DNA from: an uncultured Bacilli bacterium
Lineage (GTDB): Bacteria > Bacillota_I > Bacilli_A > RF39 > UBA660
Length of the DNA stretch: 64,000 nt
NCBI GenBank assembly: GCA_934096605.1
Contig: CAKOMI010000002.1
Location: 789 to 64,788 of the forward strand
Direction of reading: 5' to 3'
This document shows, one piece after another, positions 1 through 49,398 of the stretch (positions are counted from its first letter, which is position 1; every line of letters starts with the position of its first letter). A program made the translations under genes and the position numbers. The notes under the pieces are model-generated. The model saw only the letters and a list, made by a program, of their open reading frames with translations, did no database searches and had not been told where the DNA came from.

Positions 1-1287
1 AAACAAGGTTTAGAAATTAAAGATACAGATATATTAGAGAAAAAGAAAGAAATAAATGAATTATATAAAAAGACTTTTAATAAAGAGACTAATTTTTATG
101 AATTTGAAATAAATGAAGAGTTAGATTTAAGAAAATATTTGCCAGTTAATGGTGATAAATCTAAGCTTGATGAAGAAACAGAACATTTTTTAGAAGAATG
201 TTCTTATACCAATAATATTGATGCTTCCTTTGATTCTTTAAAAGAAATAACTAAAAAAGAACAAGAAATAATAGATTTTGTAAAAACTTTAGATGATAAA
301 GAATTAGAAACTAAGTTTAACAGTATGTTATATGATTATCAAAAACATTCTAAAATATATATAGCTGATTGTCTTAGAATACAAAGTGATTTAAGTAAAA
401 AAGGACATGTACTTTATAGTATGGATAAAAAACCAAGAGAGTATTTACTTAATTTGATTAGAGTGATTGCTAGATATAATTTATATATTAAAAGGGCTAA
501 TGAATTAGGGATAAGTGTTGCACAAGATAAAATAGAAGAATGGAAAAAGTCAATTAATATTTTATACCAAAAAGTTTTTGGTGAAGAAAAAGAGTTTTAT
601 GAACTTAAAAATAATAAAGAATTAAATTTAAGTTTTTATGTACCAGATATAGCTCCAGTAAAAGAAGAGGTAAAAAGTGATAGTAAGCAAGAAGATGATG
701 GCTTAATAAATATAGGTGATATGTTAAATAATAGTAGTATTGAAGATAAAGAAGAGCAACAAGATATTAATTTAACGGATTATATGTTTAATAATGAACC
801 AAAAGTAAAAGAGTTAAGAAAAGATATTTTAGAAGAAGGAATACCAGTTATTCAAGTAGGTAATGATACAGAAAAAGATAATATTTTAAGAAATGCTAGT
901 ATTCCTAGTAAACCATTTAATCTTAAGAAAAAAGAAGAAAAAGTAATAGAAATACCTTCTTTTATGGATATGGCTAGTGAGTATCCTATAGCGGCAGAAA
1001 TAAAGATAAAAAATGCATTTGATTGTTGTTATCTTACTCCATATGTTGGATTACTTGGTGATACTCCACGAGCTCCATTGTATGCGAGGGATGCTAAGCG
1101 TTATGCATTAACTTATTATGTGCTTTTTGATAATATGAAATTAGAATCTGCAACAGATAGTGAACAGTTATCTATTTTACTAGGTAGGGGTGGTAAAGTG
1201 ATAAGTGTTAGAACATTAGATTATTTTTATGATATTAATGATATAGAGATTATAGGAAGAGAAAAGCATTATGGTAAGAGTAGATAA
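1..1287 (+). CDS. hypothetical K/E-rich protein, 5'-truncated by window edge
   Basis: Frame 1 is open from nt 1 with no stop before the listed ATG at 139, so the gene starts upstream of the window. An internal module (..I.E.KK.IN.LY.K.F..E..FYE...N.EL.L..Y.P) occurs twice, at nt ~1-140 and ~500-650. No family recognised. Confidence 0.6.
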   Translation, partial: KQGLEIKDTDILEKKKEINELYKKTFNKETNFYEFEINEELDLRKYLPVNGDKSKLDEETEHFLEECSYTNNIDASFDSLKEITKKEQEIIDFVKTLDDKELETKFNSMLYDYQKHSKIYIADCLRIQSDLSKKGHVLYSMDKKPREYLLNLIRVIARYNLYIKRANELGISVAQDKIEEWKKSINILYQKVFGEEKEFYELKNNKELNLSFYVPDIAPVKEEVKSDSKQEDDGLINIGDMLNNSSIEDKEEQQDINLTDYMFNNEPKVKELRKDILEEGIPVIQVGNDTEKDNILRNASIPSKPFNLKKKEEKVIEIPSFMDMASEYPIAAEIKIKNAFDCCYLTPYVGLLGDTPRAPLYARDAKRYALTYYVLFDNMKLESATDSEQLSILLGRGGKVISVRTLDYFYDINDIEIIGREKHYGKSR

Positions 1288-4153
1288 AAAGAAGAAAAAA
1301 GTAAAGTTAGTAGTTTTACTTGTAAGTGTATTATGTTTATTTATGGGTGCTTCTTATGCGTATTGGTTAATGACGGCAACACAAACAGAGACTAATATAG
1401 CCAGTAGTAAATGTTTTAAAGTAAGCATTACTAATGAAAGCGATGCAATAAGCATAACAAAGGCTCATCCTGTAACAGATGAGGAAGGCTTAAAAGAAAC
1501 TGGATATTCTTTTACTATTCAAAATACATGTAGTACTTATGCTGCTTATCAGGTCAATCTAGAAGATATACTAGATGATGAAATAACTAAAAGATTAAGT
1601 AATAAATATATTAAACTATCTTTAAATGGTAGTACGCCAAGAGTATTAAGTAATTATACTAAAGTAAGTCCTACCATCGATGATGCTGATGCCTCATTTA
1701 AATTAACTAGTGGCTCTCTTGCGCCAAATGGGGAAGATGGGGACTCAGTAGACTATAACTTAAAACTATGGATGGATTATGATACACCAGCTATAGATGA
1801 AACTATGAGTGCCGCTTTTAAAAGTAAAATTAGTGTTATTGCAAGTTATATTGAAGAAAATGATTTAACAAATGAAATAACAATTGCTTATAATTCCAAA
1901 ACAACTGATTATAGTAAAGATAGTGAAACAATAGATATAAATGCCACGAGTACTAACTATAATTTAATAGAGTATAGTAGTGATAATGTAACTTACACAA
2001 GTATTGATACGCCTAGTAAAGATGTTACTCTAACTAAGACGTATACAGAAGATAAAGATGAAACTATTTATTTTCGTGATGAAATGGGTAATTTAAAAAG
2101 TGAAAATGTTGTTCTATCTAAGTTAGATAAGACAGGACCCGTTATAACAGTTACAGCTTCAAGTGACTGGGGTTCAAGTAATACAGTAAATATCACTTTA
2201 GAAGATGAAAAATCAGGTCTTGCTGGCTACGCTTTAACAGAGACAGAAATTGAGCCTAGCGAATGGACAAATGTTACTGGAAAAAGCACAACTATAACTA
2301 AAGACGTTACTAGTAATAAAAAATATTATGTTTATGCTAAAGATGCTTTAGGTAATATTAGTCATAAAGACGTTGAGGTAAGCCATGTTGATACTACTGC
2401 ACCAACAATTGTTAGTTTAACAGAACAAAGTAGTTATGGGGCAACAAGCACAATAACTGCCGTAGCAAAAGACACAGAGTCTGGTATAACAGGTTATGCA
2501 TTCACTGAATCTAGTACAGAACCCACTAGTTGGACAAGTGTAGACAATGTCATAACTGAAAGTACTTATACTTATAAGGCAACAAAGAATGGTACAATAT
2601 ATTTCTGGGTAAAAGATGGGTCAGGACATAAAATAAATAAGACAATAACTGTTAGTAAAGTAGACGCGACAGCTCCAACCGTAACACTTAGTTTAAGCGA
2701 TGAAACAACTTGGACTAAATCAAAAACATTAACAATGAATTTTAGCGATAATGATTCTGGACTAGCAGGCTATGCAGTTACAACTACAGAAACAACACCA
2801 ACTGCATGGACAAGTATAAGTGGAACAAGTGTAAGTAAAACACAGACAATAACAACTAATGGTACATATTACGTATGGACAAAAGACAATGCTGGATTAG
2901 TAAGTCATGTTAACAAAACAATATCTTATATTGATATCACAGCACCAACAGCAAGTATGACATTAACAAAAACAAGTAATTCAATAACAGTTGATGCAAG
3001 TAAGTCTAGTGATACTGATAGTGGTATAGCAAAGTATGAATATAGTATTGATAATACAACATATTATTCTTCAACAAGTTCAACATATACATTTACTGGT
3101 CTAAGTGTTGGTACTTATACTATATATTTAAGAGTTACAGATAATGCTGGAAATGTGGAAAATACTACCGCTCAAGTAGCTATCACAATACCATTAACAA
3201 CAAAAATTACACAATTAGCAGCAACCGATACAAAGAAATTAGTAACCGATGATTATGGTAACATAAGATATGTTGGTGGTAGTCCGAATAACTATGTAAG
3301 TTTTGATGGCGATATATGGCGTATTATAGGTGTCATGAAAGATGTTGATGATGGTACAGGCAATAAAGAAGATCGTGTAAAAATAATAAGAAACGATGCA
3401 ATAGGTGGTTACTCATGGGATACAAGTGAATCAAGTATCAATAATGGTAAAGGTGTAAACGAATGGAGCCAGGCAGACTTAATGAAACTATTAAATCCAG
3501 GCTATGAAAGTGAAACTGTAGGTGGATCATTATATTGGAATAATAAATCAGGAACATGTTACTCATCTAAAAACAATGGTACAAAAGCTTGCGATTTCGC
3601 AAGTACAGGTATAAAAGACAAATTAAAAAATATGCTAGGTAATGCGGTATGGAATACAGGAAGTCAAGGAACTGCATCATGGTATAACAGTAGTGGAGGA
3701 TTAACAAAACATTTTTATACATATGAAAGAAGTGAAAATACAGGAAAAATATGTACAAGTGGAATTTATTGCACAGACACGGTATCAAGAACAACAACAT
3801 GGACAGGAAAGATAGGCTTAATGTATCCATCAGATTATGGCTATGCAACAAGAGCGGCAGACCGCGCAACATGTTTAAATAAAGAATTATTAAATTGGGA
3901 TGATAGTAGTGTAAGTGGTTGTAAATATAATGATTGGCTATTAAATGTAAATGGTAGCGGTCAATGGACATTATCGCCGCATGCTGACTCTTCCGATGCT
4001 GACTATGTGTTCTATGTGTACATTGTTGGCAACGTCCGCATCGCCAATGCGTGCAGCAGCAACGCCGTCCGTCCCGTCGGTTATCTGTTATCGAATACGT
4101 TGGTCCAAAGCGGAGATGGCAGCTCAGGAAATCCTTATACGCTATCAAATTAA
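1271..4153 (+). CDS. large surface protein: SipW-type signal, TasA-like N-domain, four Ig-like repeats, C-terminal lectin-like (DUF1566/CLec-like) domain
   Basis: 960-aa ORF. The N-terminus (KKKKKVK, then a hydrophobic span ending GASYAYW) resembles SipW-cognate TasA/camelysin-type signals (..GGTxAYFxD). Four ~90-aa tandem repeats follow. The C-terminal ~300 aa are clearly homologous to ORF 20166..21470, with shared runs WRIIGVMK, ADLMKLLNPGYESE, VGGSLYWN and YPSDYGYAT, and end ..VRPV....G.G...NPY. Confidence 0.8.
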   Translation: MVRVDKKKKKVKLVVLLVSVLCLFMGASYAYWLMTATQTETNIASSKCFKVSITNESDAISITKAHPVTDEEGLKETGYSFTIQNTCSTYAAYQVNLEDILDDEITKRLSNKYIKLSLNGSTPRVLSNYTKVSPTIDDADASFKLTSGSLAPNGEDGDSVDYNLKLWMDYDTPAIDETMSAAFKSKISVIASYIEENDLTNEITIAYNSKTTDYSKDSETIDINATSTNYNLIEYSSDNVTYTSIDTPSKDVTLTKTYTEDKDETIYFRDEMGNLKSENVVLSKLDKTGPVITVTASSDWGSSNTVNITLEDEKSGLAGYALTETEIEPSEWTNVTGKSTTITKDVTSNKKYYVYAKDALGNISHKDVEVSHVDTTAPTIVSLTEQSSYGATSTITAVAKDTESGITGYAFTESSTEPTSWTSVDNVITESTYTYKATKNGTIYFWVKDGSGHKINKTITVSKVDATAPTVTLSLSDETTWTKSKTLTMNFSDNDSGLAGYAVTTTETTPTAWTSISGTSVSKTQTITTNGTYYVWTKDNAGLVSHVNKTISYIDITAPTASMTLTKTSNSITVDASKSSDTDSGIAKYEYSIDNTTYYSSTSSTYTFTGLSVGTYTIYLRVTDNAGNVENTTAQVAITIPLTTKITQLAATDTKKLVTDDYGNIRYVGGSPNNYVSFDGDIWRIIGVMKDVDDGTGNKEDRVKIIRNDAIGGYSWDTSESSINNGKGVNEWSQADLMKLLNPGYESETVGGSLYWNNKSGTCYSSKNNGTKACDFASTGIKDKLKNMLGNAVWNTGSQGTASWYNSSGGLTKHFYTYERSENTGKICTSGIYCTDTVSRTTTWTGKIGLMYPSDYGYATRAADRATCLNKELLNWDDSSVSGCKYNDWLLNVNGSGQWTLSPHADSSDADYVFYVYIVGNVRIANACSSNAVRPVGYLLSNTLVQSGDGSSGNPYTLSN
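2126..3190 (+). repeat. four tandem ~270-bp coding repeats (Ig-like domains) inside ORF 1271..4153
   Basis: Protein repeats begin DKTGPVITV / DTTAPTIVSL / DATAPTVTLSL / DITAPTASMTL. Each contains D-x-[DE]-SG[LI]xGY and a later Y[YF][VW].(K/T)D..G motif. Confidence 0.7.
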
Positions 4154-4157
4154 TAAT

Positions 4158-4190
4158 AAAAAATGAACGAGTGTTATGCTCGTTCTTTTA
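4158..4190. terminator. bidirectional intrinsic terminator between convergent genes
   Basis: Hairpin gaacgag-tgttatg-ctcgttc (4165-4185), flanked by an A-run upstream and ttttaa downstream. It lies between the stop of 1271..4153 and the stop of 4188..5051(-). Confidence 0.6.
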
Positions 4191-5051
4191 ATTGCCTTGA
4201 TTATATAGTCTGTATAAGTATATTGTTGGGTGATTTAGAAATCTACCATTTACTTTATCTGAACCTATACCAGGATTTACAAATAAAGTACTATTTTCTT
4301 TATCATATCTTCCTTTTTCATAAGTACTTGAATTTTCATCTTTTAATATACCATTTAAAAAAGGTATTCTTATGACGCCACCCATTGAATGACCAGATAA
4401 TGTTAAATCGGTGTATTTATAATTTTCATTAAATCTTATTGGCTCATGGGCTAATAGTATTTGATAGTTATTGTTAGATTCAGTATGCCAAAGCATATCT
4501 TTTTCTTCTTGTAAAGAGGCAACACCAGTTATATATATTGGAGTATTTCCTTTATAATAAATTGGGATAGTTTCTTTATTTAAAATTTTAAATCCTGTTG
4601 TTTCACATAGTTCTTTATAAAAATCTATATCAGTGTAATCTTTATCACCAGTGACAGCGTATTTGCCAAGACTTGCATTTAATTCTTTTAAAGTGTTTTT
4701 CAAGAAGTTTTTATTATCGTCACTTAGAGTTATATAATCACTTAACATATCACCTGTGAAAACTATTATATCTGGTTTAGTTTCATTAATTTTAGTTACA
4801 ACTTTTTTTAATTCTTTTTCATTAGTAATACGACCAAATTGAATATCAGAAAATTGGACTATTTTAAGGCCATTATAGTTTTCAGTTACTTTATTACTTG
4901 TTATGGCATATTCTTCTACTGTGATTATTTCTGGTTCTATAAAATGAAAGTCAATATATATTAAAATAAATAATAGTAATAAAAAAAAGCCAATTTTAAT
5001 AAATATATTTGTCTTTTTTTTAACCACTAGTTCTTGTGCTTCTTCTTCCAT
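4188..5051 (-). CDS. membrane-anchored metallophosphoesterase (calcineurin-like)
   Basis: N-terminal TM. Motifs SDIQFG, FTGDM, GDKD, LAHEP and SGHSMGG match the metallophosphoesterase signature series. Confidence 0.85.
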   Translation of the reverse strand: MEEEAQELVVKKKTNIFIKIGFFLLLLFILIYIDFHFIEPEIITVEEYAITSNKVTENYNGLKIVQFSDIQFGRITNEKELKKVVTKINETKPDIIVFTGDMLSDYITLSDDNKNFLKNTLKELNASLGKYAVTGDKDYTDIDFYKELCETTGFKILNKETIPIYYKGNTPIYITGVASLQEEKDMLWHTESNNNYQILLAHEPIRFNENYKYTDLTLSGHSMGGVIRIPFLNGILKDENSSTYEKGRYDKENSTLFVNPGIGSDKVNGRFLNHPTIYLYRLYNQGN

Positions 5052-5052
5052 C

Positions 5053-5772
5053 TTAGCCTCCTATTATAGTACTACTTAGTAAAACTAGTAATAGTGATAA
5101 AGAATTATGCATGACGTGAGTTATAGTACTTGTGAAAATTGTTTTGGTTTCAATATAACTTTTGGCAAAGAAATAACCGATACCACTATAAGGGATAATA
5201 TAAAGTAGTTGTAGTAAGTTAATGCTAGTTCCGGCTACAAAAGCATTTAATAAGTGGGCTCCACCAAATAATAGAGATGTTATTATCATGAAAGCTTTAT
5301 CGTTTGGTATAGCTTCTCTAAAGTTTTTTCTAAATAGTACTTCTTCAATAAAAGGACCTATTAAAGCCATGCTTATTATAGAGAATATTGGCATTTCATT
5401 TACAATTGAACGATTAAGAGTTTCATTGGTAGCCATATCACCAACAATGGAAAGAATTAAAGAATTACTTATAAACATAAATAGTAAGGCTAGTAACCAA
5501 TTTTTTAAACCGATTTTAAAGAAGGATTTAAAATTCTTTTTATAAAGAATGAATTCTTCTTTTAAAGATTTATGATAAAAAATATAAATTACTAGTAAAG
5601 TTAAAATATATATAATGGTATAGGCTATTATGTAGATAAGTCTATTTTGAAGGTCTAGTTTTAATATAGAGAAGAGATAGGCTGTTACATTTGGAATAAT
5701 AATCATGTAACTTAGTAGTATAGCTATGCTTCTAAGAATTGTTTTGGAGTTTATTTTTTTCAAATTAATCAC
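5053..5772 (-). CDS. CPBP-family intramembrane glutamic endopeptidase (CAAX protease-like)
   Basis: Polytopic. Motifs EEVLFR (EExxxR), FGGAHL (FxxxH) and HVMHN (HxxxN). Confidence 0.85.
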   Translation of the reverse strand: MINLKKINSKTILRSIAILLSYMIIIPNVTAYLFSILKLDLQNRLIYIIAYTIIYILTLLVIYIFYHKSLKEEFILYKKNFKSFFKIGLKNWLLALLFMFISNSLILSIVGDMATNETLNRSIVNEMPIFSIISMALIGPFIEEVLFRKNFREAIPNDKAFMIITSLLFGGAHLLNAFVAGTSINLLQLLYIIPYSGIGYFFAKSYIETKTIFTSTITHVMHNSLSLLLVLLSSTIIGG

Positions 5773-6099: not shown

Positions 6100-6858
6100 G
6101 TGCGGAAAGGAAAGCAAATTCTTTTTCTTGTATTTGCTTTAACGGTGATGATGAAAGGTGTTAATGCTGAGTGTGACTATGAAACACAAGTGAAATTAGC
6201 AACAGAAGCTTCAAATGTTAAAACAAATTATGAGGTTAAAGATATTGTTATTAATTGGCAAACTGGTGAAGAGGTAACAGGTGTTACGGAAGACGAGATT
6301 GACGATGGAAGTGAATATGTTTTGGCAAAGAAAGTTATGGTTTCTTTATATAATATTACTAGCAATATGGTTGTTACTATTACTGATGGTGATGGAATGA
6401 ATGAGGAAGTCACTTATGAAGAAACTGATAATGGCACTTATACTTTTGATGGTGGTAAGTTAGAAAATATTATAAATTATGATATTAAAATAACTACTAA
6501 TAATCCAAGTTGTTCTGGTGATGAACTTAGAACACTTAACTTACAAACACCTAAGATAAATGATTATCATTATCTTACAGCTTGTGAAGGAGTAGACGAT
6601 TATTATTGCCAAGAATTTATAGATTTTGATTTGAATATGAGTGAAGATGAGATTATATCAAAAGCGCTACTTAAAAGAGATGGACAAACTAGCGATAATC
6701 AAAATACAGATGAAAATAAAAGTTGGTTTGATAATGTAAAAGAATATTTAAAGAAACACCAATGGATAGTGTTTACTACTATTGGAGGAATCATATTAAT
6801 AGCAGGGGTTGCTACTACCGTGATTATAATTAAAAAACGGAGGAGTAAAGTTTTATGA
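6100..6858 (+). CDS. Cys-containing secreted protein with C-terminal membrane anchor
   Basis: GTG at 6100 sits 5 nt after gaggtga; the track start 6091 lies inside the RBS. Sec signal ..MMKGVNA/EC, then a C-terminal TM plus KKRRSK stop-transfer. The stop overlaps the next start (ATGA). Confidence 0.7.
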   Translation: MRKGKQILFLVFALTVMMKGVNAECDYETQVKLATEASNVKTNYEVKDIVINWQTGEEVTGVTEDEIDDGSEYVLAKKVMVSLYNITSNMVVTITDGDGMNEEVTYEETDNGTYTFDGGKLENIINYDIKITTNNPSCSGDELRTLNLQTPKINDYHYLTACEGVDDYYCQEFIDFDLNMSEDEIISKALLKRDGQTSDNQNTDENKSWFDNVKEYLKKHQWIVFTTIGGIILIAGVATTVIIIKKRRSKVL

Positions 6859-9800
6859 GAAAGAAATATTTATTATTTATATTGATATTTATAGGGATTT
6901 TAACAATTCCTGGTGTAGCTAATGCAGAACTTAGTTGTGATGCATATTATAGCATTGCTAAGTCTGGGTGTACTGTATTAAATTTAAATGGTGAATCATA
7001 TGGTATGAATACTTATGATGCTGGTGGACTTAAGACATATTGCCTTGATCCAACTAAAACAAGTGGTCTAAAAAAAGGAGGACAAAGCATTTCTGCAAAA
7101 TGTTTTAGAAGAATTGATCCTTCTAGTAAGGGTATTTATCAAGCTTATGATGTGGCTGTTACAAAAGCTTATCAAATGCTTACTGACCAAGGAAGAAATA
7201 CAAATTCGGGAGCTGATAAAGTTTTGGGAGAAATAGTTTTCAGATGGCTTGGATCTTATTATTACTTGGTTGATACTAAAGCTTCATTTCCTAGAACACC
7301 TGTCTGTGGTACGGGTGGAAAAATCGATTCTGGAACTATTTTGAATATCTTTAATCCTAATAATTATGGCAAATACTGGAGTGGTTCAGCTTATGGCGAT
7401 TCTGCCACTGCATATTCGATTTTTAATGTTGCAATAAGTGCTGGAGATCGTATTAGTAAACAAGGTGCAACTTATGAACAACTTATTTCTGATGGAACTA
7501 TTTGGGGTGATAAATACACTGTTAATTCTGTAACTCAAGAAAGTGAAGGAACTAATGTTGATCGTATTACTATTAATTTGAGTTTGGATACTGATGTACA
7601 AACTGTCAATTGGTCAGAGTTTACTGGTGGATGTGATAATAACGGAGTTGTTTGTACTACTGAAAGTGCTGTTCCAAGTGGTAATGGGGTTACTGTTACG
7701 ATTAATGTTAAAAAAACTAATAAATATAATGGCGAAGATTATAAGGTCTATGTTCAAACCTCAATATATGATACCCGTTCTTCTTCAGCTAACATGATTA
7801 TTGTTAGACCTAATAAATATGTACAAAGTTTTTTACTTGTTTCTGATTCTACTAGGAGTATTTTGTCTGGTGGTAGTAAGGTATACGTTACCTCTACTCC
7901 TGGTAATTCAACTGGTGGTGGCAAATGTAGAATAGAAAAAAATACTTATTATTGTAATGACGGACAACCTTGTAGTGAACCAGAGTATCGTGCTGATTGC
8001 GATAAGCCAAAAATTAATTGTACACCTGCAATGACAATGCCTTCAAGTTGTAATAACTTTGACGCTGAGAATGAAACTACTGGTATAATAAGTGATATTA
8101 ATGAGGTTAATAGTAGTTGTAATACTACTGGTGTAAATCAAGTTAAAAAATGTGTTCTTGGACATAATGATTTAACTAATACGTCTTTTGAATCAACTAC
8201 TGAATTGAGTGGTAATGATTATTGCAAAGTTTACTGTAAAGAAAAATATACATTTAATGTTCCAACAGCTAAAATAACAAGGAGTGGTGGATATTTCACT
8301 TTATCTACTACTATTAATGGTGAAAGAGATTGTTATGTTGCTAGTGCTGATGAAACTGCAGCTAGAGAAGGGGCCGGTATTGATACTGTTAAATTTAAGG
8401 CAGACTTAATTGAAAAATCACATGCGGTTATTGATGCTTATAATGAATACTCAAAATGGAAAGCAGCTGCTGAAAAAGATTCTGATTCAACAAAGATTCA
8501 AAATTCTACACAATATTATTCTTCTGGAACGCAGGGAGTAAAATGCCATTCTGGTCATAGCTCTGCTACACAATATTTCAAGGATTGGGAGTATATTAAA
8601 TATTCTTATTCAGGTGTTGCTTCTAAAGAATTAGATAGTTATAGAAGTGGAAGCTGTCATGAATGTAATTGTACTGAGGGTACTAATAAGGATTCAGAAC
8701 ATAAATCTAATCGAGATACTGCATATGGTGATCTTAAAGCTAAATTAGCAGAATTAAATGAAATTATTCAACAATACAATAGTTGTTCTGGTGCAGTAGA
8801 TAATAGTACGCTTGATGCTTTAACAAGTAGTCTTACTACACAAAGAGCAACCTCTAATAATGATACAAGTTGGTCTAATAATATGCAATTTGATCCAAAA
8901 GTAACATTTAAATATAATGAAGCCTATAAGGATCAAATTAATGGGGAGTTTGTTCAAAAAAGTAAAACTACTGGTGGTAGTGAAACTTATTGCTCTGGCA
9001 ACATAAATGATAACTATATTTGTGATAATGGTGGTTCTTCTAGTGTTCAAACTACAACAACTAATACTGTTATTTGTAATACTAATGGATGCCAACCAGT
9101 AACTGTTAATATAAGTAATGCAAATTTTGTTCAAAAAACAAAAGAAGCAAGTGCTACTTATGAGCCAGATCATGATTTTGCAACATATACTCCTTATGGA
9201 ACTATAAAGTTTAAAAATCCGGCTTGTAAAGGTAATGATTGTTTATGGAGTAAATTACCAGAAAATGCTTTACCTGTTTCAATGATAACTAAGACTGGTG
9301 TATTCCCATTTGTTATTAACTTTAGTAATATTGGTCAAGATAATAAAACTGGGGCTTTAGGTCGACTTATGGGAGCTTCTACAAGTGTTTTAACAGAATA
9401 TGATAAATTAGATGATAATGTAAGATGCCCAAAAGGTAGTACGTCTGAAACTATGAGTCAAAATGCTGGATATGTTTGTCATTATTTGACAAATTGTGAT
9501 AACTGTAAATTTACATGTACAGATAAAAATAACTGCAAATTCATTCAACGTGAATGTACTGGTGATAAGTGTACATTAACTTGTAAGAACTGCTTATTTG
9601 ATGGCAAAACAAATAACTTTACATATCGTACAGTATCTGTAAATAATTTGAATCCAAATACACGTAGCCTAGGTTATAACTGGTCAAATGTTAAAGGTGA
9701 AGCAACTAAGAAAGAAATTGAAACAACTAGTGATACTATTTATGAAAAACCGCAATATTCTTATACTCTTACACCAACTAATTTGAAAAATATTCGTGAT

Positions 9801-10121
9801 TATAATGATGATGCTGGTTCATATACCAATGCTGAGGTTCCAAATAGTGTTTCAGCTAAAGTTGATGGTAATGCTTCACTTTATTGTGAAACTATGGATT
9901 ATAATGGAGTTTCTAATGGTGTTACCTACAAGTGCCGTAGTCGTTTCCTTGATTTAATTGAAAAGACTGGTAAAAAATATTCAACAAGTTCTTATCGTAT
10001 TACTAGTGATAGTAATGAAGGAACAGATGCTTATGAGTCATTTGATAAATGTTCTTCTGGTTATGGTAACGGAAATTGTAAATATATAGGACCTTCATGG
10101 CGTATTAAGGAGGTTAACTAA
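6855..10121 (+). CDS. large Cys-rich secreted protein (1088 aa), candidate pilus-associated adhesin
   Basis: Sec signal ..IPGVANA/E. Dozens of Cys, including the cluster CDNCKFTCTDKNNCKFIQRECTGDKCTLTCKNC. Translationally coupled on both sides. No family recognised. Confidence 0.75.
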   Translation: MRKKYLLFILIFIGILTIPGVANAELSCDAYYSIAKSGCTVLNLNGESYGMNTYDAGGLKTYCLDPTKTSGLKKGGQSISAKCFRRIDPSSKGIYQAYDVAVTKAYQMLTDQGRNTNSGADKVLGEIVFRWLGSYYYLVDTKASFPRTPVCGTGGKIDSGTILNIFNPNNYGKYWSGSAYGDSATAYSIFNVAISAGDRISKQGATYEQLISDGTIWGDKYTVNSVTQESEGTNVDRITINLSLDTDVQTVNWSEFTGGCDNNGVVCTTESAVPSGNGVTVTINVKKTNKYNGEDYKVYVQTSIYDTRSSSANMIIVRPNKYVQSFLLVSDSTRSILSGGSKVYVTSTPGNSTGGGKCRIEKNTYYCNDGQPCSEPEYRADCDKPKINCTPAMTMPSSCNNFDAENETTGIISDINEVNSSCNTTGVNQVKKCVLGHNDLTNTSFESTTELSGNDYCKVYCKEKYTFNVPTAKITRSGGYFTLSTTINGERDCYVASADETAAREGAGIDTVKFKADLIEKSHAVIDAYNEYSKWKAAAEKDSDSTKIQNSTQYYSSGTQGVKCHSGHSSATQYFKDWEYIKYSYSGVASKELDSYRSGSCHECNCTEGTNKDSEHKSNRDTAYGDLKAKLAELNEIIQQYNSCSGAVDNSTLDALTSSLTTQRATSNNDTSWSNNMQFDPKVTFKYNEAYKDQINGEFVQKSKTTGGSETYCSGNINDNYICDNGGSSSVQTTTTNTVICNTNGCQPVTVNISNANFVQKTKEASATYEPDHDFATYTPYGTIKFKNPACKGNDCLWSKLPENALPVSMITKTGVFPFVINFSNIGQDNKTGALGRLMGASTSVLTEYDKLDDNVRCPKGSTSETMSQNAGYVCHYLTNCDNCKFTCTDKNNCKFIQRECTGDKCTLTCKNCLFDGKTNNFTYRTVSVNNLNPNTRSLGYNWSNVKGEATKKEIETTSDTIYEKPQYSYTLTPTNLKNIRDYNDDAGSYTNAEVPNSVSAKVDGNASLYCETMDYNGVSNGVTYKCRSRFLDLIEKTGKKYSTSSYRITSDSNEGTDAYESFDKCSSGYGNGNCKYIGPSWRIKEVN

Positions 10122-10564
10122 TGAGAGAATCATATTGGGGTTATTGGATAATCTTACTTGGTATATTTGTTATTGTAATAATGATGCTTGTATCAAATGT
10201 TACGACCACAAATACACAAGATTATTATCTTATTAAAGAGGTTACGGAAGCTTCAATGGTAGATGCGGTAGATTTATCTTACTACCGTACTACTGGCGAA
10301 CTTAGAATAAATTCTGATAAGTTTGTGGAAAGCTTTTTAAGAAGATTTGCAGAAAACGTAGAAATGAATACTTATCAAGTTGATTTCTATGGTATATATG
10401 AAGCTCCTCCTAAAGTAAGTGTTAAAGTTACTACTAAGAGTGCAACATATTCTGTAGCGTCTGATTCTACGTCTTTTGATATTACTAATAAAGTAGATGC
10501 AATATTAGAACTTAATGGTGTTGTAGAAGATTCTGGATCACAGGATAATAATATTACACCTTAA
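10121..10564 (+). CDS. pseudopilin-like protein (TadE/TadF size class) with MRESYWG leader
   Basis: Start overlaps the previous stop (TAATG). The N-terminus MRESYWG-YWIILLGIFVIVIMML parallels the N-termini of ORFs 38246 and 38755. Confidence 0.55.
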   Translation: MRESYWGYWIILLGIFVIVIMMLVSNVTTTNTQDYYLIKEVTEASMVDAVDLSYYRTTGELRINSDKFVESFLRRFAENVEMNTYQVDFYGIYEAPPKVSVKVTTKSATYSVASDSTSFDITNKVDAILELNGVVEDSGSQDNNITP

Positions 10565-10579
10565 TAAGGAGGAATGAAA

Positions 10580-11422
10580 ATGGGGAATATTCTCGTAAAA
10601 GTAAAAAGATTTTTAAGTAACAAGAATACTGTAACAATACTATGTGTTTTAGCAGGTATTCTTGTTCTTTATATTGGTTATAATTGGCGAGTTAAGTCAG
10701 CGACTGAACCAATTCGTATACCTTATGCCAAGACTGCTTTAGCTTCAAGACATAAAATTACTCGTGATGATATTGGATATATGGAGGTTAGTGGTACTGT
10801 TGTTAGTAAAATGGGTAACGTTATACGTAATCAAAATGAATTGATTGATAAAGAGGTTACTTATGGTAATACTATTCAGCAAAATGCTTTTTTCTTTAAA
10901 GGGGACGTTGAAGAGGCTTCTTCTAATAAAGGAACAAGTTCACTACTTTCAAATATTTCTGATGGTTATACGTTAGTTTATTTAGACGTTGACTTACATA
11001 GTACTTTTGGTAATGCTATATATCCTGGTAATTATATTGATTTATGGTTTGAAGGAAAAGACGAAAATGGGCGTTATATATATGGTAAGTTTATTCAAAG
11101 TATAAAAGTACTTGATGTTACTGATAGTGATGGTAATTCTGTTTTTGAAACAGGTAGTGAAAGTAGAACACCAGCACAGCTATTATTTGCAGTGCCAGAT
11201 GATTTGAAATCATTACTTGAAAAAGCTAAATTGGTCGGAAAATTAATACCAGTTCCTAGAAATAAAAGCTATTCACAAAATCCTGGTGCTACTGAAGTGG
11301 CTAGTTCTTATCTAGAAAATTATATTATCGCTAAATCAGCTATTATTCCTGATGAAAATATAACTGATAATACTGATGAGAATGATGATACACTAGAGAG
11401 TGATGGTGATACTAATGAATAG
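10580..11422 (+). CDS. cpaB: Flp pilus assembly protein CpaB/RcpC-like (SAF domain), paralog 1
   Basis: ATG 10580 lies 7 nt after AAGGAGG. N-terminal TM, then a SAF-like segment (IRIPYAKTALASRHKITRDDIGYMEV), then ..GYTLVYLDVD..GNAIYPGNYIDLWF..IKVLDV..AQLLFAVPDD..L..AK.VGKL.PVPRN. This matches the CpaB architecture. Confidence 0.75.
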   Translation: MGNILVKVKRFLSNKNTVTILCVLAGILVLYIGYNWRVKSATEPIRIPYAKTALASRHKITRDDIGYMEVSGTVVSKMGNVIRNQNELIDKEVTYGNTIQQNAFFFKGDVEEASSNKGTSSLLSNISDGYTLVYLDVDLHSTFGNAIYPGNYIDLWFEGKDENGRYIYGKFIQSIKVLDVTDSDGNSVFETGSESRTPAQLLFAVPDDLKSLLEKAKLVGKLIPVPRNKSYSQNPGATEVASSYLENYIIAKSAIIPDENITDNTDENDDTLESDGDTNE

Positions 11423-12239
11423 TACTTTAACTAAATTAAAAAGATTTATAGGTAATAAAAATACAGTTACTATTTTGTGTGTTATTGCAGGGGTTGTTGT
11501 TTTATACGTAGGTTATAATTATCGTGTAAAATCGAAAATTAATCCAACTACTGTACCTTATGCTAAAGTTAAATTAGAAGCTAGACATGTTATTACTGCT
11601 GATGATATTGGTTATATGGAAGTTAATAGTGACGTCATTAATAAGAGTACTAATTTAATTAAAAATGCTAAAAGCTTAATTGGAATGGAGGTTACTTATG
11701 GTAATACCATCCAACAAAATAGTTTGTTTTATACTGGTGATTTAACAGAAGCAACATTATCACCAGATTATGTTTTAAGTGATATTGAAGATGGTTATAC
11801 GGCATTCTCTTTAAGTGTTGATACTTATACTACTTATGGTAATGCGATTAAGAAAAATAACTATATTGATTTATGGTTTAATGGTACTGATGATAGTAAA
11901 AAAATAATTTATACTAACTTAGTTAAAAGTATTAAAGTTTTAGACGTAAGAGATGCCTCTGGTGTTTCTTTAGATAATCCAAGTAGTACTGGTGAACCAG
12001 CCGAATTATTATTTGCTGTACCAGATGACTTATATGTATTGCTTGTAAAAGCACTTAATGTGGGTAAATTAGAGCCTGTTCCTAGAAATGCTAACTATAC
12101 GGCTAAGCCTGGAGAAACGCAAGTTGTTAGTGACTATGTTAAGGATTATATTTTATCTAAATCAGTAACTATTCCAGAAGATAGTACTAATAGTAGTGAT
12201 AATACTGATGCTACTGATGAAACTGATATTACAGAATAA
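11415..12239 (+). CDS. cpaB: CpaB/RcpC-like protein, paralog 2 (tandem duplicate)
   Basis: Collinear with the previous ORF (KRFIGNKNTVTILCV.., GNTIQQN, NYIDLWF, IKVLDV, ELLFAVPDDL, PVPRN). Likely start MNSTLTKLKRF at 11415. Confidence 0.75.
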   Translation: MNSTLTKLKRFIGNKNTVTILCVIAGVVVLYVGYNYRVKSKINPTTVPYAKVKLEARHVITADDIGYMEVNSDVINKSTNLIKNAKSLIGMEVTYGNTIQQNSLFYTGDLTEATLSPDYVLSDIEDGYTAFSLSVDTYTTYGNAIKKNNYIDLWFNGTDDSKKIIYTNLVKSIKVLDVRDASGVSLDNPSSTGEPAELLFAVPDDLYVLLVKALNVGKLEPVPRNANYTAKPGETQVVSDYVKDYILSKSVTIPEDSTNSSDNTDATDETDITE

Positions 12240-12256
12240 GAATAAGGGGTGATATA

Positions 12257-13363
12257 ATGAATGATGCTGTATTTTCTCAATTAGATTTTGGACCTCTAGA
12301 AGAGTTTTTAAGAGAAGATAATGTAACTGATATCTCCTATACTAATGGAGGACAGGTTTGGTTAAAGACATTAGATAAAGGTGTGTATCAAGTTGATCGC
12401 CCAGAGATAAATAATGCTTTAATGGAAAAGTTAGCATTTCAATGTGCTAATGTTATGGGTAAGACTTTTAATATGGCCCATCCAATGCTCGATGCTGAAA
12501 GTGCAGAGTTACGTCTTAACTTTATACATGATTCTATTGCTACAAATGGCATAGCGTGTGTTATAAGAAAGACGCCAGCCAAAATCAGATTAAATAAAGA
12601 AAAGTTATTAAATGAAAAATATGTTACAAAATCTATTCATGAGTTTTTAATGAAATGTGTTGAAGGACACGCCAATATTATCGTAAGTGGTGAGACTGGC
12701 TCAGGTAAAACAGAACTTGTTAAATATTTAGCTAGTCATATTAAAGAAAATGAAAAGATTATTACAATTGAAGATACACTAGAACTACACTTGGATAGAA
12801 TATTTCCACACCGTGATATTGTAGCTTTAAAAACAAATAATATTGCTAGTTATAGTGACGTTTTAGTGGCTTGTATGCGACAAAACCCAATTTGGATATT
12901 ACTTTCAGAGGTTCGTTCAGCGGAAGCCGTTATGGCGGTTCGTAACTCGATATCTTCTGGACACCACATCTTATCAACCATCCACTCAGATAAAGCAAGT
13001 TTAATTCCGATGCGTATGTTTTCTTTGATTGAAAGTAATATTGACGTTGAACAATTCGTTACGACAATCCATCGTTATGTACAAATTGGTATTTATGTTA
13101 AAGGTTATATGAGTAAGGAACTAGGTAGATTTCAACGTGAGATTTTAGAGGTATGTGAATTTTACGTAGATGAACATAATAAACCACAAGTAAATACAAT
13201 TTATAAAAAGACTTTAACTGGTGATATTACAATGAATAATCCAACTAAGTATTTGAGAGATTATTTAGGAATAAGTGGTATTATTCTTGATGATGACATC
13301 TTTAAATTGGACGAAGGAGCTGTTGATACCAAGGCTCCAGTAGGGTCCATAGAAACACTTTAG
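12257..13363 (+). CDS. tadA: TadA/CpaF/VirB11-family secretion ATPase
   Basis: Walker A GETGSGKTE, Asp box IITIEDTLEL, Walker B/His box region ..ILLSEVR....SGHHILSTIHS. This is the T2SS/T4SS 'E' ATPase fold. Confidence 0.85.
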   Translation: MNDAVFSQLDFGPLEEFLREDNVTDISYTNGGQVWLKTLDKGVYQVDRPEINNALMEKLAFQCANVMGKTFNMAHPMLDAESAELRLNFIHDSIATNGIACVIRKTPAKIRLNKEKLLNEKYVTKSIHEFLMKCVEGHANIIVSGETGSGKTELVKYLASHIKENEKIITIEDTLELHLDRIFPHRDIVALKTNNIASYSDVLVACMRQNPIWILLSEVRSAEAVMAVRNSISSGHHILSTIHSDKASLIPMRMFSLIESNIDVEQFVTTIHRYVQIGIYVKGYMSKELGRFQREILEVCEFYVDEHNKPQVNTIYKKTLTGDITMNNPTKYLRDYLGISGIILDDDIFKLDEGAVDTKAPVGSIETL

Positions 13364-13372
13364 AGGTGGCGT

Positions 13373-20165: not shown

Positions 20166-21470
20166 GTGTATAAGTTTAGAAAATGGCAGATGAAACATTA
20201 TGTGATGATGATTTTAGTTTTGATTGTTTTAGGTCTATTTATTTTTCTTAAAATATTTAATACATATGCTGTATTTAGTGAGGAAAAACATTTTAATGTG
20301 ATTAATGGTGAGATTAAAGATCCAGGAGACATATATTTTGCTTATTATGTAGATGATAAGATAACAAGGAGTATTCCTAGTAAAGGTGTAGGATATGTGT
20401 TAGATACAGAAAAAAGTAATTGTACTAATGGGGTAATACCCAAATGGGATAATGCGGGATGGCAATTTATAGGTGATTATAGTGGTTATAATGCCACTGA
20501 TTATACTAGAACTAGGTGTAATTTATACTTTAAAAAGATTGATATGACTTTATCACAATATATAAATTCTTTGGTTAAATATGATGATGAGTTAAGTCCT
20601 GATGAAGCAGGTGGAAATATTAGATATATTGGTAAAAATCCCAATAACTATGTGAGTATTGATGGTGAGTTATGGCGTATTATAGGTGTCATGAAGAATA
20701 TTAATGATGGTAATGGTAATATTAGTGATCGTGTAAAATTAATCAGAAATGAAAGTATAGGCAATTTTGCATGGGATACAAGTGACTCAAGCGTTAATGG
20801 CGGTTGGGGTATCAATGAATGGACTAAGGCCGATTTAATGAAATTATTAAATCCTGGGTATGAAAGTGAGTCAGTAGGTGGCTCATTATACTGGAATAGT
20901 AGGTCAGGCACATGTTATAATGTCAAAAATAATGGTACAACTGCTTGTGATTTTAAAAATACTGGTATGAAAGATATTTTAAAAAGTTTAATAAGCGATG
21001 CAACTTGGAATTTAGGTGGCGTTCCTTATCCAGGTTATGAAGATTTTATAGCATATAATTATTATGCTTTAGAACGAGGTTCAGTTGTGTATAATAATTA
21101 TCAAACAACTTGGGTTGGAAAGGTAGGACTTATATATCCAAGTGACTATGGCTATGCAACAAGTGGTGGCATTACAACTGATCGAACAGCATGTTTAAAT
21201 ACACCATTGCTTAATTGGCATTATAATGATATAAGCGATTGTAAAAATAATAATTGGCTTTATTCTGAAACTGATTATTTATGGACTATGACAAGTGATT
21301 ATAGTACTAATTTATATGTAGTGTATGTTAGAGATACTGGTTTTGTTGGTGTTTATAATTATCCTGGTAATGGTAGAACAGTAAAACCAGTTGTGTATTT
21401 AAAAGATTCTGTGAAAGTGGTAAATGGTCTTGGAACAAAGGATTGTCCATTTGAATTATCGGCTAGTTAA
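20166..21470 (+). CDS. surface protein with SipW-type signal and lectin-like C-terminal domain (short paralog of 1271..4153)
   Basis: N-terminal TM ending ..IFNTYAVFSEE (compare the GTxAYFxD class). The C-terminal ~290 aa are collinear with the C-terminus of ORF 1271..4153. Confidence 0.8.
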   Translation: MYKFRKWQMKHYVMMILVLIVLGLFIFLKIFNTYAVFSEEKHFNVINGEIKDPGDIYFAYYVDDKITRSIPSKGVGYVLDTEKSNCTNGVIPKWDNAGWQFIGDYSGYNATDYTRTRCNLYFKKIDMTLSQYINSLVKYDDELSPDEAGGNIRYIGKNPNNYVSIDGELWRIIGVMKNINDGNGNISDRVKLIRNESIGNFAWDTSDSSVNGGWGINEWTKADLMKLLNPGYESESVGGSLYWNSRSGTCYNVKNNGTTACDFKNTGMKDILKSLISDATWNLGGVPYPGYEDFIAYNYYALERGSVVYNNYQTTWVGKVGLIYPSDYGYATSGGITTDRTACLNTPLLNWHYNDISDCKNNNWLYSETDYLWTMTSDYSTNLYVVYVRDTGFVGVYNYPGNGRTVKPVVYLKDSVKVVNGLGTKDCPFELSAS

Positions 21471-40892: not shown

Positions 40893-40989
40893 GAGAATTT
40901 CGACAATGCTCGACAACATGTGATTTTATGCGACAAAACTTCTTAAAATATCCCCCTTGTATTATTAAAAAAAGGTGCTAATATATTAA

Positions 40990-47692: not shown

Positions 47693-47759
47693 TTATTATT
47701 ACATTATTTGCTTTTTTCCAAAATTATGGTACACTTAGTAAGCGAAGGAGTGAAGAAAA

Positions 47760-49388: not shown

Positions 49389-49398
49389 AAAGATTAGT

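What the first reader, a model, noticed from the sequence alone, without database searches (positions are those of the whole stretch)
3952..4153. Adenine-depleted, NNC-codon-rich 3' end of the 960-aa surface-protein gene: DGR variable-region-like signature
The last ~190 nt of ORF 1271..4153 differ sharply in composition from the rest of the gene. By hand count, nt 3971-4080 are A 18, T 30, G 28, C 34 of 110. The 70 nt just upstream (3881-3950) are A 28, T 25, G 16, C 1. A therefore drops far more than T does. In the codon run tcg ccg cat ... ggt tat ctg, 19 of 38 codons end in C (gac tcc gac ttc tac ggc aac gtc cgc atc gcc tgc agc agc aac gcc gtc ccc gtc). Many other third positions are G where this genome normally uses A (tcg ccg gtg gtg gcg ctg acg ttg), while T-ending codons are retained. 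The affected residues (..YVFYVYIVGNVRIANACSSNAVRPV..) fall in the final strands of a DUF1566/C-type-lectin-like domain, just before the conserved VRPV. In the paralog 20166..21470 the same region is encoded with ordinary AT-rich codons. Together, selective loss of A, NNC codons derived from AAC, a C-terminal CLec-like scaffold, a G/C-rich run (gccgtccgtcccgtcgg) and a downstream hairpin (4165-4185) describe a diversity-generating retroelement variable region. No template repeat or reverse transcriptase is in this window. The alternative explanation is a recombination patch from a higher-GC homolog; a second small GC-rich patch at 3847-3873 fits that view.
Basis: partly seen in the sequence, partly recalled or inferred. 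Interest (0 to 1): 0.7.

Follow-up and report, generated by a model that had tools for sequence, protein, structure and literature searches.

The report
Orphan DGR variable region, now static
The GC-rich, adenine-poor last ~105 bases of this gut-bacterial surface-protein gene are a real diversity-generating-retroelement variable region, but no retroelement lies nearby and the region is identical in all sampled strains, so it is a known kind of system seen in a silent, orphaned state.

Summary
In detail: the hand counts are exact, and 3926-4125 is the most GC-rich stretch of a 28.6 %-GC window. In nt 3974-4078, 19 of 35 codons end in C and none in A, against 74 and 371 of 901 elsewhere in the gene.

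The DGR reading is right about origin. The C-terminal domain belongs to a family of more than 7,700 proteins, with at least 18 copies in one sister genome. The codons that are odd here are hypervariable family-wide, on an invariant scaffold.

Sister species carry canonical cassettes next to family members: target gene, AAC-rich template repeat (TR), bAvd and reverse transcriptase (RT). Their TR/VR mismatches fall at adenines only. The window VR aligns in register. Only 2 of 104 positions are unexplained by adenine mutagenesis or known TR allele variation. The domain models confidently as a DUF6273, C-type-lectin-like fold, a published DGR target scaffold.

Activity is not shown. No TR, Avd or RT lies in about 82 kb of contiguous genome, and no cognate TR was found anywhere. 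The VR is identical in 9 alleles on about 30 contigs. Cis VRs, however, change only episodically.

The hairpin is an ordinary terminator. The 3847-3873 patch reflects amino-acid composition. This is a new member of a known kind.

The parts
1271..4153 (+). Target gene: a 960-aa secreted or surface protein. It has an N-terminal hydrophobic anchor or signal, Ig-like repeats, and a C-terminal DUF6273-like domain carrying the VR.
   Evidence: ORF and translation. PKD/Y_Y_Y/OmpL47-type hits at aa 559-640. The N-terminal parts of family members hit camelysin/Peptidase_M73.
3191..4150 (+). C-terminal 320-aa ligand-binding domain of DUF6273 / C-type-lectin-like fold. It is shared by a family of more than 7,700 proteins.
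   Evidence: Homologue searches gave 6,308 and 7,784 hits. The AlphaFold2 model has pLDDT 92.8 and pTM 0.92. Foldseek matched DUF6273 phage proteins and receptor-binding proteins at prob 1.0, and 9qa6 at E 2e-8, which contains a DUF6273 domain. Hits to Lcl/DUF1566 and C-type lectin domains were weak (PMC12402451, PMC10743442).
3974..4078 (+). Variable region (VR): the segment homologous to the template repeats of the related DGR lineage (TCGCCG...CGTCCCGT).
   Evidence: It aligns in register to five TR alleles. Of 104 positions, 67 are identical to all alleles, 18 are explained by adenine mutagenesis, 17 match at least one allele, and 2 are unexplained. Homology in the cis cassettes ends at the same ...CCCGT boundary.
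3980..4063 (+). Block of diversified codons (aa 904, 906, 909, 911-912, 915, 917-919, 921, 923-926, 928-931), interleaved with invariant scaffold codons.
   Evidence: Entropy is about 3 bits at these positions across the family. They are filled by Y/N/S/D/G/R/H/F/I/T/C, while neighbouring positions have entropy near 0. The corresponding TR codons are AAC or AAT.
4079..4135 (+). 3' tail downstream of the VR. It is not in the TR but is unusually conserved at DNA level and moderately GC-enriched in VR-type copies only. It may be a homing or recombination signal (inferred).
   Evidence: About 97 % identical to the closest homologue, L006, against 56 % in the VR. Third-position GC is raised at aa 939-947 only in VR-type copies. 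No significant secondary structure: z = +0.9.
4165..4185 (.). Bidirectional intrinsic terminator between convergent genes. It is not a DGR element.
   Evidence: Terminator scan on both strands. Fold z = -4.5. It lies about 100 nt past the VR boundary.
3847..3873 (+). It consists of Ala/Arg/Asp codons, mostly A-ending, and is unrelated to the DGR.
   Evidence: Sequence gca aca aga gcg gca gac cgc gca aca. The family third-position GC profile is flat here.
20166..21470 (+). Paralog of the same family with a fully degenerate ex-VR segment: ordinary GC, and K- and M-containing sequence.
   Evidence: 47.8 % identical domain. VR-equivalent GC 0.30 and A 0.30, with no TR homology.

Best explanation
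Nt 3974-4078 are a variable region written by a diversity-generating retroelement (DGR).

Mechanism. In this lineage an AAC/AAT-rich template repeat (TR) is transcribed. It is reverse-transcribed by a DGR reverse transcriptase (RT) working with bAvd, with misincorporation at template adenines. The cDNA then replaces the 3' end of a surface-protein gene. That 3' end encodes the ligand-binding face of a DUF6273 (C-type-lectin-like) domain.

How this explains the composition. Scaffold codons are kept free of adenine. AAC codons become NNC. Together these give the high GC, the loss of A and the excess of C-ending codons.

State of this copy. It is remote from any cassette: there is no TR, Avd or RT in about 82 kb. 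No exactly cognate TR has been sampled. The sequence is identical in all sampled strains of the species. It is therefore best read as a past DGR product that is now static, either an orphan or a very rarely rewritten copy. It is one of many such dispersed paralogs.

Shown: DGR origin, the scaffold fold, absence of a local cassette, and invariance among strains. Inferred: that the copy is no longer diversified. Also inferred is how it became remote, whether by trans-homing or by duplication or gene conversion of a module written in cis.
For: Composition statistics.

Family-wide entropy of about 3 bits lies exactly at these codons, with the residue spectrum expected from AAC mutagenesis and an invariant scaffold.

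Canonical cassettes in relatives:
- L011: VR 779-892, TR 1400-1513, bAvd, RT.
- L080, from a sister species: 19-21 adenine-site mismatches and 0 others, with Avd matching DivGenRetAVD and an intact 349-aa RT.
- L083, L095, L106 and L110-L119: 0-1 non-adenine mismatches.

Live mutagenesis in cis: the same TR allele and the identical RT occur with four different VRs.

The window VR against the TR alleles. At the 31 sites that are A in all five alleles it differs at 15. At the 67 sites that are never A, its base is absent from every allele at only 2. Against the L080 TR alone, 17 of 33 A sites and 8 of 60 non-A sites differ (p=1.6e-4).

Shared non-adenine states. A subgroup of VRs in the sister genome shares the window's non-adenine states. 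The columns that vary among them coincide with TR adenines (p about 1e-13). The window has 2 private changes.

Fold: pLDDT 92.8, DUF6273-like. DUF6273 is a published DGR target scaffold (PMC11792537, PMC10743442).

Absence of a cassette.

Invariance among strains.

Across paralogs, similarity to a TR correlates with VR GC (rho 0.80) and inversely with A fraction (rho -0.75). That is a decay series towards ordinary composition.
Against: No TR was found whose mismatches to this VR are restricted to adenines. The best alleles leave 7-8 non-adenine mismatches.

The whole genome of the window's species could not be searched, so the cassette is shown to be absent from only about 82 kb.

Invariance between strains is weaker evidence than it looks. 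Cis-active VRs of the sister species are also identical between some strains whose flanks are 98.7-99.8 % identical.

Only 2 private non-adenine changes separate the VR from the inferred TR allele. The last rewriting was therefore not ancient.
Confidence: 0.8

Rival explanations
1. The VR is still an active trans target. A cognate TR with Avd and RT lies elsewhere in the same genome and occasionally rewrites this remote VR. The sampled strains simply share the latest version.
For: Only 2 positions of the VR are unexplained by the sampled TR allele space, and only 2 are private changes relative to the inferred TR.

The junction at the VR 3' end (CCCGT|CGGTTATCTG) and the conserved tail resemble those of cis targets.

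Cis VR turnover is episodic, so identical VRs in 98-99.8 % identical strains also occur in active systems.

Contigs of the RT subclade group B all break before the TR, so some alleles remain unseen.
Against: There is no variation in 9 alleles on about 30 contigs, nor in the second VR-type gene on 42 or more contigs. By contrast, 12 cis loci carry 6 different VRs.

In the one MAG where both a cassette and remote paralogs are available (CAKOQM), every remote copy has 5-23 non-adenine mismatches to the resident TR.

No cognate TR appeared in the viral, genome or metagenome scans.
Confidence: 0.17
2. The segment is an ordinary recombination or horizontal-transfer patch from a higher-GC homolog, with no retroelement involved.
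For: The gene is mosaic in its identity to its closest homologue. Some stretches are 98-100 % identical and others 62 %. Strain differences are clustered. So recombination does occur in this gene.
Against: The patch boundaries coincide with the TR-homologous segment. Differences from the TRs are concentrated at TR adenines. The same patch recurs in about 57 of 91 family copies in equally AT-rich genomes. No matching GC-rich donor was found.
Confidence: 0.02
3. The pattern is a chance or selection-driven codon and amino-acid composition effect, for example an Ala/Gly/Arg-rich strand region, with no special mutational mechanism.
For: This does explain the smaller 3847-3873 patch.
Against: Third codon positions carry the signal: 0 of 35 A-ending and 19 of 35 C-ending codons (p 1e-8 to 1e-11). 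The paralog encodes the same fold with ordinary codons. The segment is the extreme GC outlier of the 64 kb.
Confidence: 0.01

Closest known systems
Prototype DGR of Bordetella phage BPP-1 (mtd VR, TR, bAvd, bRT)
   Same: Related cassettes here have an AAC-rich TR, adenine-specific mismatches, a VR at the extreme 3' end of the target gene on a C-type-lectin-type fold, a bAvd-like accessory protein and a DGR-type RT with IGNxxSQ...YMDD. The general DGR mechanism is taken from established knowledge.
   Different: The window's VR has no adjacent cassette. The system is chromosomal in uncultured gut Bacilli, not in a phage. The scaffold is DUF6273-like, not Mtd-like. The cassettes carry two extra conserved small ORFs (about 93 and 121-146 aa) with no family hit. 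No IMH-proximal hairpin was detected.
DUF6273-domain DGR targets of gut phages: Faecalibacterium prophages (PMC11792537) and crAss-like 'tentaclins' (PMC10743442)
   Same: The domain fold is the same: Foldseek prob 1.0 to DUF6273 phage proteins. The VR maps to the C-terminal end of the domain. The domain is described as C-type-lectin-like.
   Different: Here the domain sits on cellular surface proteins with camelysin-like or Ig-like N-terminal parts. It is expanded to at least 18 copies per genome. The Pfam DUF6273 model hits only 5 of 87 members, weakly, and does not hit the window protein.
Dispersed DGR-target paralogs with remnant TR-VR homology in cyanobacteria (PMC7517822)
   Same: Intragenomic dispersal of CLec-type target paralogs. 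Some retain TR-VR homology without a proximal RT, which that paper interprets as loss of diversification after a variant is fixed. The same situation is inferred here.
   Different: A different phylum, scaffold subfamily and protein architectures. Here a graded decay series in composition is quantified across about 90 copies, and TR relics without an RT are seen in the sister genome.

Membership tests
Diversity-generating retroelement (complete, active system) | A DGR-clade reverse transcriptase encoded in the same genome, usually near the target | tested here: inconclusive
   None in the window, in 8.7 kb to the left or in 10 kb to the right, by motif scan, tblastn with three RTs and Pfam tables. 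The whole genome was not available. Intact RTs exist in a sister species, which is 92.6 % identical to the window over an anchor region.
Diversity-generating retroelement (complete, active system) | A template repeat whose differences from the VR are confined to TR adenines | tested here: not met
   No such TR in the window or in the viral, genome or metagenome scans. The best sampled alleles leave 7-8 non-adenine mismatches. Positive controls give 0-1.
Diversity-generating retroelement (complete, active system) | Adenine-biased substitution pattern of the VR relative to the TR lineage | tested here: met
   15 of 31 always-A sites differ, against 2 of 67 never-A sites unexplained. Against the L080 TR, 17 of 33 A sites and 8 of 60 non-A sites differ, p=1.6e-4. 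Columns that vary among sibling VRs coincide with TR adenines, p about 1e-13.
Diversity-generating retroelement (complete, active system) | Avd-type accessory protein | tested here: inconclusive
   Absent from the 82 kb examined. Present in every related cassette: PF22296 and NF033474 hits, both below their curated cut-offs.
Diversity-generating retroelement (complete, active system) | Site-specific hypervariability of the VR among strains or within populations | tested here: not met
   The VR is identical in 9 alleles on about 30 contigs and at DNA level in strains with 45-56 differences elsewhere in the gene. Read-level diversity could not be tested. Cis VRs of the sister species do vary.
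Diversity-generating retroelement (complete, active system) | VR at the 3' end of the target gene, displayed on a C-type-lectin-type fold | tested here: met
   The VR ends 75 nt before the stop codon. Confident model with DUF6273 / C-type-lectin-like matches.
Diversity-generating retroelement (complete, active system) | IMH-type 3' boundary element and nearby hairpin or cruciform | tested here: inconclusive
   TR-VR homology ends at a conserved GC-rich ...CGTCCCGT junction, as in the cis cassettes. No significant fold lies directly downstream. The only hairpin is the gene's terminator. Function cannot be tested in silico.
DUF6273 (Pfam PF19789) domain family | Match to the family profile or fold | tested here: inconclusive
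   No Pfam hit for the window domain even at E<=10. 5 of 87 family members hit weakly, best E 0.0018. At fold level the match is strong: BFVD DUF6273 proteins at prob 1.0, and 9qa6, which contains a DUF6273 domain (PMC12402451).
   No Pfam hit. Only marginal partial structural hits: 8q4e at E 0.68, and DUF1566 phage proteins at E >= 6e-3 with low probability.

The most novel reading that the evidence does not exclude
In these small-genome gut Bacilli the DGR may act as a generator for a hard-wired repertoire. Variants written at the single cis target would be repeatedly copied, by duplication, gene conversion or trans-homing, onto dozens of dispersed DUF6273 surface-protein genes. There they are frozen and slowly decay. 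Each genome would then carry a birth-and-death 'germline library' of binding specificities. On this reading the window gene is a recently archived member, only about 2 private changes from its inferred template.
Probability: 0.4. Interest if true: 0.6.

Novelty: new member of a known kind. Interest (0 to 1): 0.4.

Why it matters
It shows that composition alone can flag DGR-written DNA in an AT-rich genome. The signature is an adenine-poor 3' gene end rich in NNC codons.

It documents a large, unannotated DGR target family in uncultured human-gut Bacilli, with more than 7,700 proteins and at least 18 copies per genome. Large surveys that rely on RT proximity cannot see such remote targets (PMC8144416 says so explicitly).

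The graded series runs from cis-active VRs through fresh orphans to fully decayed paralogs. With the TR relics, it offers material for studying how DGR-generated diversity becomes fixed in gene families.

For this particular locus the practical message is caution. A VR signature records history and does not prove ongoing hypermutation.

Tried and rejected
1. Second copy (TR) of 3901-4200 inside the window. Sensitive blastn and an adenine-tolerant IUPAC pattern found none.

2. Adenine-tolerant pattern of the window VR scanned against viral contigs and genome contigs. There were no hits, not even to the VR itself, so the species representative lacks this allele.

3. Conserved TR 5'-flank pattern scanned against metagenome and viral contigs. 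It recovered one intact TR (L095) and two relics (L090, L092) but no cognate TR. Eight other hits were chance matches.

4. RT-guided walking through six RT variants (P0137, P0138, P0177, P0168, P0342, P0343, P0348, P0353). This yielded at least 6 TR alleles, none cognate. Group-B contigs all break before the TR.

5. L080 initially looked like the window genome's own DGR because it comes from the same metagenome. I rejected this. Its lineage is a sister species: the L118 anchor is 92.6 % identical to the window, and L080 is 97 % identical to that group.

6. The 8 non-adenine mismatches were first read as decay. I revised this, because most are shared with sibling VRs or present in other TR alleles.

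7. Strain invariance was first read as decisive proof of inactivity. I softened this after calibrating against cis VRs.

8. The 65-nt match at window 40896-40960 looked like a possible scar of a lost cassette. I rejected it as evidence, because it is the leader of the Rpn-like PDDEXK_2 gene that flanks the cassettes.

9. The first AlphaFold model, from 29 sequences, was unusable at pLDDT 45.6. The PDB profile search found nothing. Pfam and NCBIfam gave no hit for the domain.

10. A syntenic TR downstream of the window paralog, as in L047, is absent: the intergenic gap is only 120 nt.

11. A literature search for DGRs in Tenericutes, RF39 or Mollicutes found nothing relevant.
Full report
**1. 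Observation**

Nt 3971-4080 are A18 C34 G28 T30. Nt 3881-3950 are A28 C1 G16 T25. The window is 28.6 % GC, and the stretch 3926-4125 is its most GC-rich 150-200 nt, peaking at 0.55.

The signal sits at third codon positions. In nt 3974-4078, 19 of 35 codons end in C, against 74 of 901 in the rest of the gene (p=1.7e-11). None ends in A, against 371 of 901 (p=2.8e-8).

The paralog at 20166-21470 encodes the equivalent segment with ordinary composition, GC 0.30.

**2. The protein and its family**

ORF 1271-4153 encodes a 960-aa protein. It has an N-terminal hydrophobic anchor, Ig-like repeats (PKD/Y_Y_Y/OmpL47-type hits at aa 559-640) and a 320-aa C-terminal domain with no Pfam, NCBIfam or PDB sequence hit.

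That domain has 6,308 homologues, and 7,784 when the search starts from the paralog. They are almost all unannotated proteins from gut metagenomes.

The family is expanded within genomes. There are at least 18 copies in MAG UMGS1217 ('uncultured Tenericutes') and 10 or more in several Hadza 'uncultured Bacilli' MAGs. UMGS1217 is the closest genome to the window, at 89-94 % nt identity in housekeeping stretches.

An alignment of 87 diverse members gave a confident AlphaFold2 model, pLDDT 92.8 and pTM 0.92. Its best structural matches are:
- DUF6273-domain proteins of gut phages, including annotated receptor-binding and tail-fibre proteins;
- the Thomasclavelia ramosa IgA peptidase 9qa6, whose N-terminal domain is DUF6273 (PMC12402451).

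Partial hits to Lcl/DUF1566 and to classical C-type lectin domains are weak. DUF6273 is described as C-type-lectin-like and as a DGR target scaffold, with the VR at its C-terminal end (PMC10743442, PMC11792537).

**3. Family-level signature**

Across the family the flanks are nearly invariant (...DCKNNDWL...QWT[LI]SP and VRPV[GV]YL...SGDGSSGNPF). Discrete positions have about 3 bits of entropy: aa 904, 906, 909, 911-912, 915, 917-919, 921, 923-926 and 928-931. They are filled almost only by Y/N/S/D/G/R/H/F/I/T/C/L/V/A, the set reachable from AAC by changing its adenines. These positions alternate with invariant A, S, F, V and G scaffold positions.

About 57 of 91 distinct copies show the same GC-rich, A-poor patch. 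Third-position GC is 0.5-0.93 over aa 903-936, against 0.3 or less upstream. The other 34 copies, including the window's paralog, are ordinary.

**4. Canonical DGRs next to family members in relatives**

A motif scan found an RT with IGNMTSQ...YMDD in L011. In that locus the family gene's 3' end (779-892) is repeated at 1400-1513 as an AAC-rich TR, with 20 adenine-site mismatches and 1 other. A bAvd-like ORF and an RVT_1 RT follow. That RT is frameshifted in this MAG.

RT homologues led to intact cassettes. Their order is target gene, orf93, TR, orf121, bAvd, then a 349-aa RT.

| Loci | Adenine-site mismatches | Non-adenine mismatches |
|---|---|---|
| L080 | 19-21 | 0 |
| L095 | 16-18 | 0 |
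| L083-87 | 11-12 | 1 |
| L106 | 15 | 0 |
| L110-L119 | 15-19 | 0-1 |

Loci L080, L110, L112/113 and L117 share one TR allele and the identical or near-identical RT, yet carry four different cis VRs. That is direct evidence of live adenine mutagenesis.

L118:1-3248 matches window 46151-49398 at 92.6 %. This DGR-bearing lineage is therefore a sister species of the window's organism.

**5. The window VR against the TR lineage**

The VR aligns in register with five TR alleles over 104 nt:
- 67 positions are identical to all alleles;
- 18 are explained by adenine mutagenesis;
- 17 carry a base present in at least one allele;
- 2 are unexplained (4027 and 4069).

At the 31 sites that are A in every allele the VR differs at 15. 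At the 67 sites that are never A, its base is absent from all alleles at only 2.

No single sampled allele is cognate. The best leave 7-8 non-adenine mismatches.

Those mismatches are mostly not decay. GCT, GTGTTC and the 3' GTCCGTCCCGTCGG are shared with a subgroup of VRs in the sister genome (L005, L006, L033, L092). The columns that vary among these five VRs coincide with TR adenines (p about 1e-13 to 1e-15). The window has only 2 private changes relative to the TR inferred from the subgroup.

The template was therefore an unsampled, mosaic TR allele. The last rewriting was not ancient.

**6. Is it active here?**

No TR, TR flank, Avd, RT or accessory ORF lies in the window, in the 8.7 kb to its left or in the 10 kb to its right.

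The 90 % cluster of the protein holds 10 alleles on about 32 contigs, from at least three cohorts. All differences (1-28 aa) lie at aa 2-685. The VR is identical in all 9 alleles that cover it.

At DNA level, two strains have 45 and 56 substitutions in this gene, and the locus is 99.5 % and 98.1 % identical. Neither has any difference from about nt 2870 to the stop codon.

A second VR-type gene lies just left of the window (L001:1442-2920). It is identical on 42 contigs, and one allele has 41 N-terminal changes with the same VR.

A calibration limits how far this goes. In the cis-active sister cassettes, some pairs with 99.7-99.9 % identical flanks differ at 15-20 VR positions. Other pairs at 98.7-99.8 % have identical VRs. 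Turnover is episodic, so invariance here is suggestive and not proof.

In the one MAG where a cassette and remote paralogs can both be seen (CAKOQM), every remote copy has 5-23 non-adenine mismatches to the resident TR. Across all copies, similarity to a TR correlates with VR GC (rho 0.80, p 2e-22). Mean GC falls from 0.585 in cis copies to 0.405 in copies with no TR homology left.

The sister genome also holds TR relics without Avd or RT: L047, which equals L090, and a further truncated version, L092.

Together these results favour a model in which remote copies are frozen DGR products that decay. The window copy would be a relatively fresh one.

**7. Details of the finding that do not hold**

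- The hairpin at 4165-4185 is a bidirectional intrinsic terminator about 100 nt beyond the VR.
- The 3847-3873 patch is an Ala/Arg/Asp codon effect with A-ending codons.
- The domain is not detectably DUF1566.
- The GC-rich run gccgtccgtcccgtcgg is real. It marks the 3' end of TR homology, the position equivalent to an IMH. Its function cannot be tested here.

**8. Comparison with what is known, and novelty**

Everything fits the established DGR paradigm. DUF6273 targets are published for gut phages (PMC11792537, PMC10743442). Dispersed target paralogs with remnant TR-VR homology and loss of diversification are described in cyanobacteria (PMC7517822). The main metagenomic survey states that it could not detect remote targets (PMC8144416).

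The locus is therefore a new member of a known kind: a remote, currently static DGR variable region in a large, unannotated cellular DUF6273 family of uncultured gut Bacilli. Interest is moderate.

**9. Open points**

It remains open whether a cognate TR and RT exist elsewhere in this species' genome. It is also open whether remote copies arise by trans-homing or by duplication or gene conversion of modules written in cis. The 3' tail after the VR is about 97 % identical between the window and L006, and its third-position GC is raised only in VR-type copies. It could be a homing or recombination signal.

Noticed in passing
window 20166-21470: A second family member (434 aa). Its VR-equivalent segment has ordinary composition (GC 0.30) and no TR homology, so it is a fully decayed or never-targeted paralog. 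It is missing from the syntenic region of the sister genome (L033), so it is an insertion or deletion difference between the species.
   Followed up: partly
L001:1442-2920 (about 8 kb left of the window start, same genome): Another VR-type family gene (492 aa; VR GC 0.53). It has 12-14 non-adenine mismatches to the nearest TRs. It is identical on 42 contigs and has the same VR in an allele with 41 N-terminal changes.
   Followed up: partly
window 40896-40972: A solo 65-77-nt element, 88-92 % identical to the sequence that begins 1-2 nt after the RT stop codon in every cassette of the sister-species DGR lineage. In L016 the same element is the leader of a PDDEXK_2/Rpn-like gene with no RT upstream. 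In the window no such gene follows. There is no Rfam match. It may be a scar of a lost Rpn gene or cassette boundary, but this is ambiguous.
   Followed up: partly
L047:11134-11262 (= L090) and L092:883-950: Orphan TR relics in the sister genome lineage. They have the same conserved flanks as functional TRs but carry internal deletions or are truncated, and no Avd or RT follows. The adjacent family gene has a fully degenerate VR.
   Followed up: partly
L080:4717-4998 and 5321-5686; L011:1114-1398 and 1589-2029; L083:4767-5048 and 5315-5686: Two small ORFs are conserved in every cassette, with no Pfam or NCBIfam hit. One of about 93 aa lies between the target and the TR. One of 121-146 aa lies between the TR and Avd. 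They are candidate lineage-specific DGR accessory proteins.
   Followed up: no
L080:4625-4685 (also L047:10965-11030): Two strong GC-rich hairpins lie immediately after the stop codon of cis target genes (z = -4.1). The window gene lacks them. They could be terminators or DGR-related cruciforms.
   Followed up: no
L110-L120, L118: The same cassette, always followed by a PDDEXK_2/Rpn-like gene, occurs in at least three chromosomal contexts: uvrD...ligA, spoIVA-HU..., and ...priA. This suggests the cassette moves together with the Rpn-like gene.
   Followed up: partly
L011:2329-3386: The RT of this MAG's cassette is split by a frameshift (59-aa and 283-aa ORFs, against 351 aa in the intact homologue P0135). 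Its cis VR nevertheless still has only 1 non-adenine mismatch.
   Followed up: no
window 1271-2870: All nucleotide differences between strains in the 960-aa gene (45-56 per strain) cluster in patches within the N-terminal and Ig-like repeat part. The 3' 1.3 kb is invariant. Identity to the closest homologue, L006, is mosaic (62-100 %), which suggests recombination among repeats or paralogs.
   Followed up: partly
window 4079-4135: The tail after the VR is about 97 % identical to L006, and its third-position GC is raised only in VR-type copies, although it is not part of the TR. It may be a cis-acting homing or gene-conversion signal.
   Followed up: partly
window 6855-15057: An operon-like run downstream: a 1088-aa protein, DUF5411, an RcpC-like protein and a T2SSE ATPase. 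It includes two adjacent paralogous genes, 10574-11422 and 11400-12239, about 65 % nt identical. It resembles a Tad or type-IV-pilus-like system next to the surface-protein gene.
   Followed up: no
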